From: an uncultured Acidobacteriota bacterium
GTDB lineage: Bacteria > Acidobacteriota > Polarisedimenticolia > JACPZX01
NCBI GenBank assembly: GCA_964568735.1
Contig: CAZMRF010000003.1
Coordinates: 36,454-100,453, forward strand
Reading direction: 5' to 3'
DNA length: 64,000 nt
Numbering within the stretch: position 1 is the first letter of the stretch; each line of letters opens with the position of its first letter. This document shows, one piece after another, positions 27,209 through 30,200 of this stretch. The notes beneath the pieces were generated by a model. That model was given only the letters and a program-made list of their open reading frames with translations, was not told the origin of the DNA and ran no database searches. Position numbers and translations under genes: made by a program.

Positions 27209-30200
27209 TCAGCGGACCGGACCTCGGTGATAGACGTCCGCGGCGGAGTTGCAGTCGTCGACGAGCAGGCTCACCGAGGGTGGGGACCAGGTCACCCATC
27301 GTCCCCCACCCGACAGCGGGCGCCGCGCGCAGGGTCCGCCGATCGGTCCGGGGTTTTTCCCACCGTTCCAGATCGACCCCAGGACGTAGGGATGGTTGAT
27401 GTCGCCCTGCAAGAAGCCCACGAGGACCTCGTCACTGACCTCCGGGATTGAGTAGTAGCCACGCTCCTTGCCGGCCGAGAGGATTGAAATCCGGGCCCAG
27501 CAGCTCTCATCCGAGCCGCATCCCCCCGAATGGTCCCAGGGGAACTGGACCTTCACGCGGCCATAACTGAAGGGATCCGTCCCGATGACGGGGGCAATCG
27601 CGGTCACGATGCCGGTCTGGACACCGAAGATCTTCGGCACGGGTGTCGATCTCAGTGGCCGGTAGGCCGCCCACGTGAAGAGAATGGGAGTGGACTTGCC
27701 GGTCTGGCTCTCCGTGTCATCCACCTGCACCTCGTATCCGATGCGCGGGGCGAGGCGTGTGACGAAGGCGAGGTCGGACTCCCTGTACTGCACGCAGTGG
27801 TCCGCCGCCGTGTTGAGCGAGATGGTCTCTCCCTGGGGCTTCACGACATCGAGATAGGGGATGGTCGAGCAGAAGGCCTCGGGCGAGCTGCCTCCTCCGC
27901 CGAAGGTCACACGTGCCAGCGGTGAGAGCCCCGCCCCGCTCACAGAGACCCCCGTCCCCCCGAGCCAGGTCCCATCGACCGGCGATGTTGAGAGGGCGGA
28001 CGGGGATGGAAGATACGTGTAGGCGCCCAGGCGGAGAGCGCCCAATCCGCCGGGATCGACGACCTCCACCGCGGCGGGCCCCTCGAGGGGGCGCGATACG
28101 GGATTGTTCCCGGAGTAGGTGTAGCCGTTGCCCAGGGACGATTCGCCCTGCTCTCCCTGCGTCCCCTGACGCGCGGTCGATCGGCCCGAGCGGGAATCCA
28201 GATAGAGCCCGACGGCGCGCGGCCCGGCAACCGAGCCGCCCGGATCGTGGAGCGTGCCCGTGCTTGTTTCCCTGTCGTTCAGCTCGACGAAGTTGGTGGT
28301 GTAGAACCCGGATTCGGGGTCGAGCCTGTAGGACTTGAAGAGGAAGGGGTTCCCGATCTGCGAGCCGGGGAGGGGGGCGTTGATGGGAGGCGGGCCGAAG
28401 ACCTGCACGCCGCCGTAGTCCTCGTACTTGTACTGCTCGACGACGCTCCCGGAGGCATTGGTCACCTTGCGGATGCTTCCCAGGTCGTCGGCGTGGAAGA
28501 AGTACTCCTGACCGCCGCGGGTCATCTCGACGATCGACTGGATCCCCGTGCCCGGCACGTAGGTGGCGAGCGTGGTGCCGGATCCGTCCTGCGCCTCGAT
28601 GTCGATCCCGACGTAGTGGAAGTCGCGGGTGATCATCGCGCCGTTGTTCTTCTCGAACCGGTGGCCGAACCAATCGTATCCATATGTCGTCATGAGGCCG
28701 GCCCCGACGTTCGTGTGGCGGACCAGCTGGTCTCGGTAGTCGTAGGCCATCTGGATCGTCGGACCCCCTCCGGTCGACTGGATCAGGTTGCCGTTCCTGT
28801 CGTAGCTCCGTCCGTCGAAGGGGGTCGTCGTGTACTGGTTCTCCTGGAGGTCGGCGGGCTCGGGAGTGGCCGGGCTCATCGTGTAAAGTCCGGGGTCCGG
28901 CCCGTTGATCACCTCGGCGCGGTTCCCCGCGTTGTCGAGGAGGTACTGGACGGGCGGCTGCGCGGTGCCCGCCACGATCTGCGTCGCCTTCAGGCGGCTG
29001 ATGGAGTCGAAGCCGTGGAAGCGCTGCTCGGGCGGGAAGGCCAGGCTGTCCTGCGCGAATGTCTTGTTGTCCGCCCGATCCCACTGGTAGGCGCGATCGT
29101 CGAAAGCGGCCATGGTGGGGGTCTTGAGGTGCCGGGTTCCGGTGATCCGCCGAGCGCCGTCGTATTGGGGCTCGTACCTGGTGCCGTTGCCATAGCTCAG
29201 ACGCTCGATCCTCGCGGGTCCCACGTACTGGACGGCGGCGATGTCGGCGCCCGGGCCTGCTGGCGCCTCCTCGATCAGGGAGACACGGTTCAAGCCGTCG
29301 TGCGAAAAGACGATGCTCCGGCCCCCCGGATAGGTCAGGCTCTTGAGGTTGCCCATGCTGTCGTGGCTCGCGAGCGTCGTCCGGATGCTCCCCGCCGGGA
29401 GAGGCTGAAGCGTCTCCACCATGACGTTCGAGAGCGAGTCGTAGGCGAGCGTCACCCGCGAGTCGTCGTCCTGTGCGGAGACCACGCGGGAGCCCCCGTC
29501 GTACTGGATCGCCTCCATGGTGGTCCCCAGGACTCCCGGGCCCCGGAGAACGGAGCGGCTCGAAAGGCGGTTCAGGAGGTCATACGTGTTGGTCACGACG
29601 CTCCCGTTGGCGTCGTTCGTCGAGCTGATCTTCCCGTGGATGTTCCACGTCCGCGAGACAGCCGTCCCGTCGGGCATGGTGGTCACCGTGGGGCGGTCGA
29701 GGGAGTCGTAGGACTGTGTGGTGACGTTCCCGTTGCCGTCCGTCCAGCCGATCGCCCGCGAGGACCTGTCCCAGGCCTGCGTGGTCGTGATCGATCCGAT
29801 CGCGGTGCCCCCTCCCTCTCCCGTGTTCGTGAGCGCCCGCACCGCCTGGAGGGGCCGCATGAGGCCGTCATGGCTGTAGCGCGTGACGTTCCCCCGCTCG
29901 TCCGTCCAGACGACGAGATAGCCGTGCGAGTCGTAGGCGGCCTGCCTGGCGTTGCCCAGATTGTCGACGCTTCCGACAGGACGATCGAGGTTGTCGTACT
30001 GGGATGTCGTGACAAGGGTCCGATCTGGATTGCCAAGGTCCGACTTGTCCACTTCCGTGACCTTGCTGACGTTCCCGTTCAGATCGTACTCATAGGTCGT
30101 GAGGTTCAGCCTTGGATCGCGGCTCTCCAGGACGCGATAGGCGTTGTCGTAGGACGCTTGGGTGACGTGGCCGTTGTCGTTGGTGAGAGAGCGGACCTGC

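What the first reader, a model, noticed from the sequence alone, without database searches (positions are those of the whole stretch)
27212..28041. RHS cargo domain downstream of the DPGGL cleavage motif resembles the VgrG/phage gp5 OB-fold instead of a toxin
After the RHS core terminus (...NPVSRPLEGPAAVEVVDPGGL) come about 280 residues containing GRVKVQFPWDHSG...SCWARISILSAGKERGYYSIPEVSDEVLVGFLQGDINHPYVLGSIWNGGKNP. This matches block-for-block the conserved VgrG / phage baseplate gpV-gp5 OB-fold region (consensus GRVKVQFHWDR...SCWVRVAQPWAG...[27 protein letters not shown]), which I recall from VgrG family alignments. In known systems this domain sits at the N-terminus of spike proteins and RHS proteins bind to it via PAAR. 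Here it occupies the position normally held by the encapsulated C-terminal toxin of an RHS/Tc-type cage. It could be a novel spike-mimic cargo, a recombination relic of a VgrG-RHS fusion, or a new delivery arrangement.
Basis: partly seen in the sequence, partly recalled or inferred. Interest (0 to 1): 0.75.

Follow-up and report, generated by a model that had tools for sequence, protein, structure and literature searches.

The report
Spike-protein fragment ending a giant RHS protein
A 4,300-residue exported RHS "cage" protein ends in an Ig-like domain plus a cut-down piece of a phage/T6SS spike protein instead of a toxin, an arrangement seen only twice in public data and of unknown function.

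Summary
The 277 residues after ...VVDPGGL (window 27212-28042, minus strand) contain a significant Phage_base_V OB-fold: 64.5-69.6 bits against a cutoff of 23.8. Foldseek's best matches to the model are eCIS and T6SS spikes.

It is not a whole VgrG. The tail consists of:
- an IPT/TIG-like Ig domain;
- a ~40-residue remnant of the gp27/GPD hub, with ~160 hub residues missing;
- the OB-fold;
- about one beta-helix rung, then the stop codon.

One metagenomic homologue (55% identity) has the same boundaries, the same stop and lineage-specific cysteines. dN/dS is 0.48, so the module is maintained and is not a dead relic.

The "cleavage motif" is degenerate:
- Q replaces the first catalytic Asp at the homologous position.
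- 27- and 10-residue insertions break the spacing.
- The NCBIfam scans reported no RHS repeat-associated core domain match.

No immunity gene and no CIS/T6SS gene lies in the 64 kb. A sister genome lacks the whole 13.3-kb gene.

My best reading is a Sec-exported, cysteine-repeat-stalked, teneurin-like RHS protein. Its tail is a domesticated, non-toxic spike fragment, probably kept attached for binding or oligomerisation. Encapsulated cargo is not excluded. I rate it a new variant of a known kind, of moderate interest.

The parts
27209..40219 (-). Giant ORF of 4336 codons plus stop. The likely true start is ATG at 40111 (M37).
   Evidence: It is an uninterrupted ORF. The GC1/2/3 pattern of 0.62/0.54/0.86 is typical of coding sequence here. 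Pfam architecture is given.
40019..40111 (-). Probable Sec-type signal peptide, MARRVLVLRCALALLGLLGTLIIPGNLLAQS (aa 37-67).
   Evidence: Read from the sequence: a basic n-region, a ~20-residue hydrophobic core and an A-x-S site. This is inference; no predictor was run.
39524..39796 (-). CIS_tube-like module (aa ~142-232).
   Evidence: Pfam PF19266 scores 34.8 bits against a cutoff of 27. It is 44% identical over 98 aa to the 185-aa CIS_tube protein P0250, with SFSLRYTLFLDDGTPVRA identical.
32690..37639 (-). Cysteine-rich MopE-type repeat stalk (aa ~861-2510). Motif: C-DG-x-DNDCDG-x-TDE.
   Evidence: Pfam Cu-binding_MopE matches 14 stretches at 261 bits. DNA repeat family D1 has 28 copies between 32869 and 37638.
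28520..32542 (-). DUF6531 followed by the RHS/YD repeat shell region (aa ~2560-3900).
   Evidence: Pfam RHS_repeat 166.7 bits and DUF6531 27.1 bits. TIGR01643 YD_repeat scores 124 bits. PDB sequence hits include Tse15, Tse5, RhsA and the S. bongori Rhs core.
28043..28501 (-). Divergent RHS core end (aa 3907-4059). It contains a 27-aa insertion (aa 3977-4003, including D3992-PGG), Q4018 at the position of the first catalytic Asp, a 10-aa insertion (aa 4044-4053) and the terminal V-D4055-PGGL.
   Evidence: MAFFT alignment with the nearest relatives P0217-P0222. The NCBIfam scans reported no RHS repeat-associated core domain match. Motif rules come from PMC8636562 and PMC8765631.
27818..28036 (-). 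IPT/TIG-like Ig domain (aa ~4062-4134; tail residues 3-75).
   Evidence: An exhaustive phmmer search puts giant TIG-array proteins on top, all matching tail residues 2-75. P0068 and P0069 are TIG arrays with 26 and 47 repeats by Pfam. BLASTP to each repeat of P0073 gives 37% identity over 65 aa, E ~1e-9. Pfam TIG itself did not hit the tail, and AF2 confidence is low here.
27686..27808 (-). Remnant of the gp27/Phage_GPD hub (aa 4138-4178), CVQYRESDLAFVTRLAPRIGYEV...
   Evidence: Pfam Phage_GPD matches profile positions 116-153 of 305 only, at 22-27 bits against a cutoff of 30.1. Canonical VgrG genes need ~970 nt to span tail residues 81-231, so about 160 hub residues are missing here.
27368..27616 (-). 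gp5/gpV/VgrG-type OB-fold (aa 4202-4284), with a lineage-specific Cys-containing loop (GGCGSDESC).
   Evidence: Phage_base_V scores 64.5-69.6 bits. Foldseek finds spike proteins. C175 of the tail and its 4-residue loop insertion are shared only with P0002.
27212..27367 (-). C-terminal 52 residues: a linker plus about one rung of the spike beta-helix (SGGGRWVTW...SLLVDDCNSAADVYHRGPVR), then the stop codon.
   Evidence: The segment aligns with the 'SRSGH-x-I-x-L-DD-x-x-G' start of the beta-helix in gpV-like proteins P0014, P0017 and P0029, by eye. It is conserved, with the same stop, in P0002. C238 and C264 are shared only with P0002.
27143..40489 (.). 13.3-kb segment holding the giant gene and its flanks. 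It is present here and absent from a syntenic sister genome.
   Evidence: In L067 (GCA_973521125.1, ~90% nt identity) the FtsX/MacB gene is followed after 42 bp by the Dam methyltransferase gene.

Best explanation
The tail is a domesticated, cut-down contractile-injection-system spike module. It comprises a TIG domain, a remnant of the gp27 hub, a gp5/gpV OB-fold and one beta-helix rung. It is fused in frame to the C-terminus of an RHS/YD shell whose C-terminal autoprotease signature has decayed.

The whole protein is a Sec-exported, roughly 446-kDa surface or extracellular protein. From N- to C-terminus it has a signal peptide, a tube-like module, Ig-like regions, a long Cys-rich MopE stalk, the RHS shell and the tail. 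In layout it resembles teneurin-type YD proteins more than T6SS Rhs effectors.

In this reading the tail is not a toxin and is probably not released. It stays covalently attached and acts as a disulfide-stabilised protein-binding or self-association module, for example threefold association through the OB-fold 'neck' as in spikes.

Shown:
- domain identities and boundaries;
- conservation under purifying selection;
- degeneracy of the protease motif;
- absence of an immunity gene and of any CIS context in the window;
- accessory (indel) status of the gene.

Inferred:
- export by Sec;
- lack of cleavage;
- location of the tail outside the shell;
- a binding or oligomerisation role.
For: - Domain map.
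- The hub and the helix are truncated, so the canonical tube-docking and PAAR-docking surfaces are absent.
- At the homologous position of the first catalytic Asp, all six nearest relatives have R-D or P-D, and this protein has R-Q. It also has 27-aa and 10-aa insertions.
- D-to-N changes of either catalytic Asp abolish cleavage in RhsA and Rhs1 (PMC8765631; PMC8636562).
- No RHS repeat-associated core domain match was reported.
- No toxin family hit in Pfam, NCBIfam or PHROGs.
- The next gene is a convergent FtsX permease gene whose end lies 62 bp away, so there is no immunity gene.
- The tail is 29 kDa and consists of folded beta domains. T6SS Rhs toxins are 9-20 kDa and the cage capacity is below 25 kDa (PMC8636562). 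Bacterial teneurin-like proteins (TLPs) have C-terminal domains of ~15 kDa (PMC13018210).
- The module is conserved in P0002: 55% identity, identical end, all indels in frame, and dN/dS 0.48 (bootstrap CI 0.34-0.65). Only 0.45% of neutral simulations stay free of stop codons.
- Cys residues C175, C238 and C264 are shared with P0002 only. That fits an oxidising, exported environment.
- Teneurins are a precedent for an uncleaved YD shell with an external C-terminal domain (PMC8765631, PMC8636562).
Against: - No structural or biochemical evidence shows where the tail sits or whether it is cleaved.
- The terminal D4055-PGGL is intact, and the 27-aa insertion carries a second D-P-G-G (D3992) that could supply the missing aspartate.
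- The RHS region (~1500 aa) is longer than in T6SS Rhs proteins, so its cage might hold 29 kDa.
- Bacterial teneurin-like proteins studied so far do encapsulate and cleave their C-terminal domains (PMC13018210).
- dN/dS of 0.48 indicates only moderate constraint.
- Whether the second example (L002) is attached to an RHS protein is unknown, because its 946-bp contig ends inside the TIG domain.
- The oligomerisation role is pure inference.
Confidence: 0.42

Rival explanations
1. Encapsulated cargo. The TIG and mini-spike tail is folded or held inside the RHS cage, is cut off after DPGGL by the aspartyl autoprotease, and is released on a target as a non-enzymatic 'spike-mimic' payload.
For: - It sits exactly where relatives carry variable tails after DPxG(L).
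- The terminal DPGGL aspartate is retained, and an extra DPGG lies 63 residues upstream.
- The long RHS region (~1500 aa) may enclose a larger volume.
- Bacterial YD and teneurin-like proteins generally encapsulate their C-terminal domains (PMC13018210).
Against: - The first catalytic Asp is Q at the homologous position.
- The PxxxxDPxGL spacing and the spacing between the two motifs are broken.
- No core-domain profile hit.
- The payload has no toxin signature and there is no immunity gene.
- It consists of Ig and OB beta domains with conserved Cys pairs, unlike known unfolded cargos.
- At 29 kDa it is above the sizes reported for T6SS Rhs toxins (PMC8636562).
Confidence: 0.25
2. Recombination relic. 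An RHS tip was replaced by part of a spike gene and a TIG array through illegitimate recombination. The product is tolerated but has no function of its own.
For: - The module is made of domain fragments: a hub remnant, a truncated helix, and a TIG segment that begins with the '...YTY' end of a preceding repeat.
- RHS tips are known recombination hotspots (general knowledge).
- The gene is accessory and absent from a sister genome.
- Only two examples exist, and constraint is moderate (dN/dS 0.48).
Against: - The same fragment boundaries and the same stop are kept in a homologue at 36% nucleotide divergence.
- dN/dS is significantly below 1.
- All indels are in frame.
- The chance of staying stop-free under neutrality is 0.0045.
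- New cysteines are shared by both copies.
Confidence: 0.17
3. CIS-docking arrangement. The tube-like N-terminal module and the spike-like C-terminal module let the exported RHS protein attach to, or be loaded on, an extracellular contractile injection system or phage-tail-like particle.
For: - Two different CIS-derived modules occur in one protein.
- The OB-fold is most similar to short gpV-like and eCIS-type spikes (51-59% identity).
Against: - No CIS or T6SS gene lies in the 64 kb.
- The parts of VgrG that contact the tube (gp27 barrels) and PAAR (helix tip) are missing.
- The closest tube-like relatives (P0249, P0250) themselves have signal-peptide-like N-termini, and P0249 lies outside any CIS locus.
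- A Sec signal is not how known CIS components or cargos travel (general knowledge).
Confidence: 0.08
4. Assembly or annotation artefact: a chimeric contig or a hidden frameshift joins an RHS gene to a separate spike gene.
For: - RHS and Cys-repeat genes are repeat-rich and hard to assemble.
- Relatives such as P0217 are broken at contig ends.
Against: - The reading frame and third-position GC are continuous across the junction.
- An independent JGI contig covers the junction (window 23946-28076, 99.98% identity), although it extends only 34 nt upstream of the tail.
- In L002 the ORF also runs open upstream of the spike part, through the TIG segment.
Confidence: 0.03

Closest known systems
VgrG/TssI and eCIS Afp8 / phage P2 gpV central spikes (Phage_GPD + Phage_base_V + beta-helix)
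   Same: The OB-fold is homologous: Pfam 64.5 bits, 45-59% identity to gpV-like proteins, and Foldseek probability 1.00. A short hub motif (VQYRESDxxFVxRL) and the first helix rung are recognisable.
   Different: - About 270 of ~300 hub residues and nearly the whole beta-helix are absent.
- It lies at the C-terminus of a signal-peptide protein and is not a free-standing cytoplasmic protein.
- It carries extra conserved cysteines.
- No CIS or T6SS locus is nearby.
VgrG-Rhs fusion 'megaspikes' (e.g. Advenella mimigardefordensis, PDB 8qja; 107 proteins reported in bioRxiv 10.1101/2024.02.26.582050)
   Same: One polypeptide combines VgrG-derived and RHS parts. 8qja is the best PDB sequence hit.
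   Different: There, a complete VgrG is N-terminal, the RHS follows, and a toxin with an immunity gene sits at the C-terminus. Here only a fragment of the spike is present, and it lies C-terminal to the RHS.
T6SS/Tc-type Rhs polymorphic toxins (RhsA, Rhs1, Tse5, Tse15, TcC)
   Same: It has a YD/RHS shell, a DUF6531 plug-type domain and a terminal DPxGL-like motif. Close relatives have polymorphic C-terminal tails.
   Different: - It has a Sec signal where PAAR, VgrG or TcB would be.
- The autoprotease signature is degenerate.
- No toxin domain and no immunity gene.
- The tail is 29 kDa and made of folded beta domains.
Teneurins and bacterial teneurin-like proteins (PMC5851990, PMC13018210)
   Same: It is an exported or surface protein with a Cys-rich repeat stalk N-terminal to a YD shell. 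In metazoan teneurins the protease is dead and the C-terminal domains sit outside the shell.
   Different: - No FN-plug, NHL or TIP domains were detected.
- The stalk repeats are MopE-type, not EGF.
- Bacterial teneurin-like proteins studied so far still cleave and encapsulate ~15-kDa toxic C-terminal domains and have immunity genes.

Membership tests
VgrG/TssI (T6SS spike) or Afp8-type eCIS spike | Full gp27-like hub (Phage_GPD, ~300 aa) | tested here: not met
   Only profile positions 116-153 of 305 match, at 22-27 bits against a cutoff of 30.1. TIGR03361 scores 103 bits against 186, and TIGR01646 scores 100 against 122. About 160 residues are missing compared with canonical loci.
VgrG/TssI (T6SS spike) or Afp8-type eCIS spike | gp5-type OB-fold (Phage_base_V) | tested here: met
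   64.5-69.6 bits against a cutoff of 23.8. Foldseek's top hits are spikes.
VgrG/TssI (T6SS spike) or Afp8-type eCIS spike | Trimeric C-terminal beta-helix that ends in a PAAR-binding tip | tested here: not met
   The protein ends 52 residues after the OB-fold. No T6SS_Vgr or Gp5_C hit was found. Only about one rung is recognisable.
VgrG/TssI (T6SS spike) or Afp8-type eCIS spike | Encoded with sheath, tube and baseplate genes | tested here: not met
   None of the 30 proteins scanned from the 64-kb window, including the giant ORF's neighbours, is a stand-alone CIS or T6SS component. The rest of the genome was not visible.
Rhs/YD polymorphic toxin | RHS/YD repeats forming a shell | tested here: met
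   RHS_repeat scores 166.7 bits and YD_repeat 124 bits. The shell fold itself was not modelled.
Rhs/YD polymorphic toxin | RHS repeat-associated core with two DPxGL aspartyl-protease motifs ~17-22 residues apart and PxxxxDPxGL | tested here: not met
   - The NCBIfam scans reported no RHS repeat-associated core domain match.
- Q4018 occupies the first Asp position.
- The two DPGG motifs have aspartates 63 residues apart.
- Prolines lie at -7, -11 and -15 relative to D4055, and none lies at -5.
- Actual cleavage cannot be tested with these tools.
Rhs/YD polymorphic toxin | C-terminal toxin domain | tested here: not met
   The tail's only significant family hits are Phage_base_V, a sub-threshold Phage_GPD match, VgrG models and tail/baseplate PHROGs.
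Rhs/YD polymorphic toxin | Cognate immunity gene immediately downstream | tested here: not met
   A convergent FtsX/MacB permease gene ends 62 bp from the stop codon.
Teneurin-like YD proteins | FN-plug + NHL beta-propeller + YD-shell superfold | tested here: not met
   No NHL, FN-plug or TIP hit in the Pfam scan of the whole protein at E<=0.01. This was a sequence test only.
Teneurin-like YD proteins | C-terminal domain outside an uncleaved shell (metazoan type) | not testable with these tools
   The shell plus tail (~1800 aa) exceeds the 1200-aa modelling limit. Only the decay of the motif is seen.
IPT/TIG domain | Match to the TIG profile | tested here: inconclusive
   Pfam TIG did not hit the tail. 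However, phmmer and BLASTP match each repeat of bona fide TIG arrays (37% over 65 aa, E ~1e-9).

The most novel reading that the evidence does not exclude
A previously undescribed class of Sec-exported RHS proteins has co-opted contractile-injection-system parts for use outside any injection machine: a tube-like module at the N-terminus and a disulfide-stabilised mini-spike at the C-terminus. The spike fragment would either be the payload of the cage or serve as a threefold docking or target-engaging tip. That would amount to a CIS-independent, or trans-loading, RHS delivery arrangement.
Probability: 0.1. Interest if true: 0.8.

Novelty: new variant of a known kind. Interest (0 to 1): 0.5.

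Why it matters
RHS and YD cages are thought of as containers for C-terminal toxins, and spike OB-folds as parts of contractile injection machines. This protein breaks both expectations. A maintained, exported fragment of a spike sits where the toxin should be, behind a decayed autoprotease.

If the tail stays attached outside the shell, this would be a bacterial parallel to the step that turned a YD toxin into the teneurin adhesion scaffold. If instead it is cargo, it would be the first non-enzymatic, spike-derived RHS payload.

Either way it shows, together with the secreted tube-like module, that injection-system structural folds are reused in Sec-exported surface proteins. The practical weight is limited. 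There are only two examples, both from uncultured organisms, and there are no functional data.

Tried and rejected
- **RHS core profile.** NCBIfam scans of the whole protein and of the core end alone (E up to 10) reported no RHS repeat-associated core domain match. PDB phmmer on the core end aligned only the upstream YD part.
- **Scans for more examples.** The species-representative genome scan gave 25 loci and the JGI metagenome scan gave 36 loci, using the TIG and mini-spike alignment. All hits were ordinary VgrG or gpV genes, with none sharing the arrangement.
- **Exhaustive protein search.** In the 1.84-billion-representative search, only P0002 matched residues 73-277. Long proteins in the top 150 have the OB-fold at ~350-500, meaning an N-terminal VgrG. 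Only the best 150 of 12,818 hits could be seen.
- **Other OB-fold proteins checked.** P0136 has a C-terminal OB-fold but is a collagen plus full-hub VgrG. P0078 is a tandem VgrG, and P0077 has three tandem OB-folds.
- **PHROGs.** There was no hit on the N-terminal 864 aa.
- **AF2 models.** The model of the N-terminal tube-like region (3-sequence alignment) had pLDDT 30 and was unusable. The AF2 tail model is unreliable for residues 1-82.
- **L002 downstream sequence.** It shows no FtsX synteny.
- **Exact-sequence look-ups.** Look-ups of the window's FtsX protein found no record. Its 91%-identical orthologue P0247 did have a record and gave the sister locus.
- **Literature.** The searches run here found no description of an RHS protein with a C-terminal Phage_base_V domain.
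- **Frameshift idea.** A frameshifted continuation of VgrG downstream was rejected, because the downstream minus-strand ORFs are off-frames of the convergent FtsX gene.
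Full report
**1. The observation**

The window is high-GC (about 68%). Coding frames were therefore chosen by codon-position GC. The finding lies on the minus strand, inside one uninterrupted ORF at 27209-40219 (4336 codons). The string ...NPVSRPLEGPAAVEVVDPGGL ends at aa 4059. 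The tail is aa 4060-4336, which is 277 aa, 29.2 kDa and window 27212-28042.

Support for the OB-fold:
- Pfam Phage_base_V matches aa 4202-4284 over essentially the full profile. It scores 64.5 bits in the whole protein and 69.6 bits in the tail alone, against a cutoff of 23.8.
- NCBIfam VgrG models match the same ~105 residues but stay below their whole-protein cutoffs.
- The best PDB sequence hits for this part are VgrG proteins and the VgrG-Rhs fusion 8qja.
- An AF2 model has pLDDT of about 80-87 in the OB region and is poor elsewhere. Foldseek on it returns eCIS, T6SS, R-pyocin and P2 spikes as top hits.

**2. Anatomy of the tail**

The tail has four pieces.

- **(a) Residues ~3-75: an IPT/TIG-like Ig domain.** In an exhaustive phmmer search of 1.84 billion representatives, the top hits are giant TIG-array proteins. 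All of them match this segment repeatedly, and Pfam confirms them as arrays of 26-47 TIG domains. BLASTP to each repeat of P0073 gives 37% identity over 65 aa. Pfam TIG itself did not reach threshold on the tail, so I call this TIG-like.
- **(b) Residues 79-119: CVQYRESDLAFVTRLAPRIGYEV.** This matches only positions 116-153 of the 305-position Phage_GPD hub profile and falls below the cutoff. In canonical VgrG genes found in genomes and metagenomes, tail residues 81-231 are spread over about 970 nt. About 160 hub residues are therefore missing here, as is the hub N-terminus.
- **(c) The OB-fold.**
- **(d) Fifty-two further residues.** By eye they align with the first rung of the beta-helix of gpV-like proteins (SRSGH-x-I-x-LDD-x-x-G). 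The stop codon follows.

The module is therefore a cut-down spike, not a VgrG. The OB part is closest (51-59% identity) to short ~215-aa gpV-like proteins.

**3. Is it maintained?**

Only one other sequence shares the arrangement. P0002/L002 lies on a 946-bp JGI contig, and its ORF runs open upstream into the TIG part.
- It is 55% identical to the tail.
- It has the same internal deletions.
- It ends at the same position (RGPLR* against RGPVR*).
- All indels are in frame.
- Nei-Gojobori dN/dS is 0.48, with a bootstrap 95% interval of 0.34-0.65.
- At the observed 36% nucleotide divergence, only 0.45% of neutral simulations remain free of stop codons.
- Cys175 (with a 4-residue loop insertion), Cys238 and Cys264 are shared by these two sequences and absent from 60 spike homologues.

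This argues for a functional, probably disulfide-bonded module and against a decaying relic. Constraint is only moderate. Whether L002 is attached to an RHS protein is unknown.

**4. The RHS end**

The nearest relatives of the last 413 RHS residues (P0217-P0222, 33-45% identity) have canonical ends. These read ...RYLDPxxGRFTTRD(P/T)IG...LGNGYxYxxxxPxxxxDPxG(L), followed by unrelated tails of roughly 150-290 aa. So this is indeed the variable-tip position of this RHS clade.

Aligned to these relatives, the window protein differs in three ways:
- It has a 27-aa insertion at aa 3977-4003, which itself contains D3992-PGG.
- It has Q4018 where every relative that extends through this position has the first catalytic Asp.
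- It has a 10-aa insertion at aa 4044-4053 just before V-D4055-PGGL.

The published rules are not met. These rules are two DPxGL motifs about 17 residues apart, a PxxxxDPxGL motif, and loss of cleavage on Asp-to-Asn change of either aspartate (PMC8636562; PMC8765631). The NCBIfam scans also reported no RHS repeat-associated core domain match. The inserted DPGG could conceivably substitute for the lost aspartate, so loss of cleavage is likely but not shown.

**5. Context**

The whole protein reads as follows:
- a probable Sec signal peptide (aa 37-67, inferred from sequence);
- a CIS_tube-like module;
- Ig-like regions;
- about 1650 aa of MopE-type Cys-rich repeats;
- DUF7107 and DUF6531;
- about 1500 aa of RHS repeats;
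- the tail.

Downstream, the end of a convergent FtsX/MacB permease gene lies 62 bp from the stop codon, so there is no immunity gene. Upstream lies a Dam methylase gene. None of the 30 proteins scanned across the 64 kb, including the giant ORF's neighbours, is a stand-alone CIS or T6SS component.

A sister genome (GCA_973521125.1, ~90% nucleotide identity) has the same flanking genes, but FtsX is followed directly by the methylase. Window 27143-40489, which holds the giant gene, is therefore a 13.3-kb presence/absence difference. No repeats or mobile-element genes mark the junctions.

**6. Interpretation**

The tail has no toxin signature.
- It is built of stable beta domains with conserved cysteines.
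- It is larger than the 9-20 kDa toxins and the <25 kDa capacity reported for T6SS Rhs cages (PMC8636562).
- It follows a decayed protease signature and has no immunity gene.

The surfaces through which spikes bind the tube (gp27 barrels) and PAAR (helix tip) are missing; which surfaces these are rests on general knowledge.

The layout (exported protein, Cys-rich stalk, YD shell, C-terminal non-toxic domains) most resembles teneurins. There the protease is dead and the C-terminal domains sit outside the shell (PMC8765631, PMC8636562). I therefore favour a retained, external binding or oligomerisation appendage (confidence ~0.4). Encapsulated cargo comes next (~0.25), then a tolerated relic (~0.17) and CIS docking (~0.08).

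Bacterial teneurin-like proteins described in 2026 still cleave and encapsulate small toxic C-terminal domains, and they carry FN-plug, NHL and TIP domains not detected here (PMC13018210). This protein is therefore not a member of that family.

**7. Novelty**

Known VgrG-RHS fusions have a complete VgrG at the N-terminus and a toxin at the C-terminus (107 proteins; bioRxiv 10.1101/2024.02.26.582050; PDB 8qja).

I found no description of the reverse arrangement in four literature searches. I also found no further example in the sequence searches, although only the best 150 of 12,818 OB-fold hits could be inspected.

I rate it a new variant of a known kind. It is real and unusual, but rare and functionally untested.

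Noticed in passing
window 39524-40111 (- strand; aa 37-232 of the giant ORF): After a signal-peptide-like N-terminus, the giant protein carries a CIS_tube (PF19266) module, with SFSLRYTLFLDDGTPVRA identical to that of small CIS_tube proteins. The closest relatives, P0250 (185 aa) and P0249 (a tandem duplicate, 334 aa), also start with signal-peptide-like sequences. P0249 lies next to YdjC and Tricorn-like genes, not in a CIS locus. This suggests an unrecognised subfamily of secreted, orphan tube-like domains.
   Followed up: partly
window 27143-40489 versus L067 12535-12576: The whole 13.3-kb giant gene is absent from a syntenic sister genome (GCA_973521125.1, ~90% nt identity). No integrase, flanking repeats or shift in GC content were seen, so the direction of the event (gain or loss) is unknown.
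   Followed up: partly
window 18810-22890 versus L067 6231-8458: This is a second presence/absence difference with the sister genome. The window has an OPT oligopeptide transporter and a second M1 peptidase. The sister genome has a 281-aa hypothetical protein and an AAA_14/DUF4143 ATPase.
   Followed up: no
window 32690-37639 (- strand): About 1650 aa of MopE-type cysteine-rich repeats (CDGxDNDCDGxTDE), seen as 28 DNA copies with ~150-200 nt spacing. This is an unusually long stalk of this repeat, interspersed with a second Cys-rich unit (CxSxPGGSxxxSxxExC).
   Followed up: no
window 38324-38567 (- strand; aa 551-632): A weak, sub-threshold Pfam hit to DUF3383 (17.8 bits, E 0.0017) lies in the Ig-like region. 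Its significance is unclear, and it was not confirmed by PHROGs.
   Followed up: partly
window 13926-15733 (- strand): An AbiEii nucleotidyltransferase toxin and an AbiEi antitoxin pair (type IV TA / abortive-infection module) lie next to the PFOR gene.
   Followed up: no
L064/L065 (JGI 3300010391 and GCA_964577695.1): The closest RHS relative, P0217, comes from the same metagenome sample as contig L001. It has a canonical RDPKG...DPFGA core end and a different, proline-rich tail of unknown function. A 913-aa TSP3/LVIVD/Big-domain protein follows it. Its N-terminus is cut by the contig end.
   Followed up: partly
P0077 (351 aa, from the representative search): This protein consists of three tandem Phage_base_V OB-folds (200 bits, 3 stretches). 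It may be a single-chain 'pseudo-trimer' of the spike neck.
   Followed up: no
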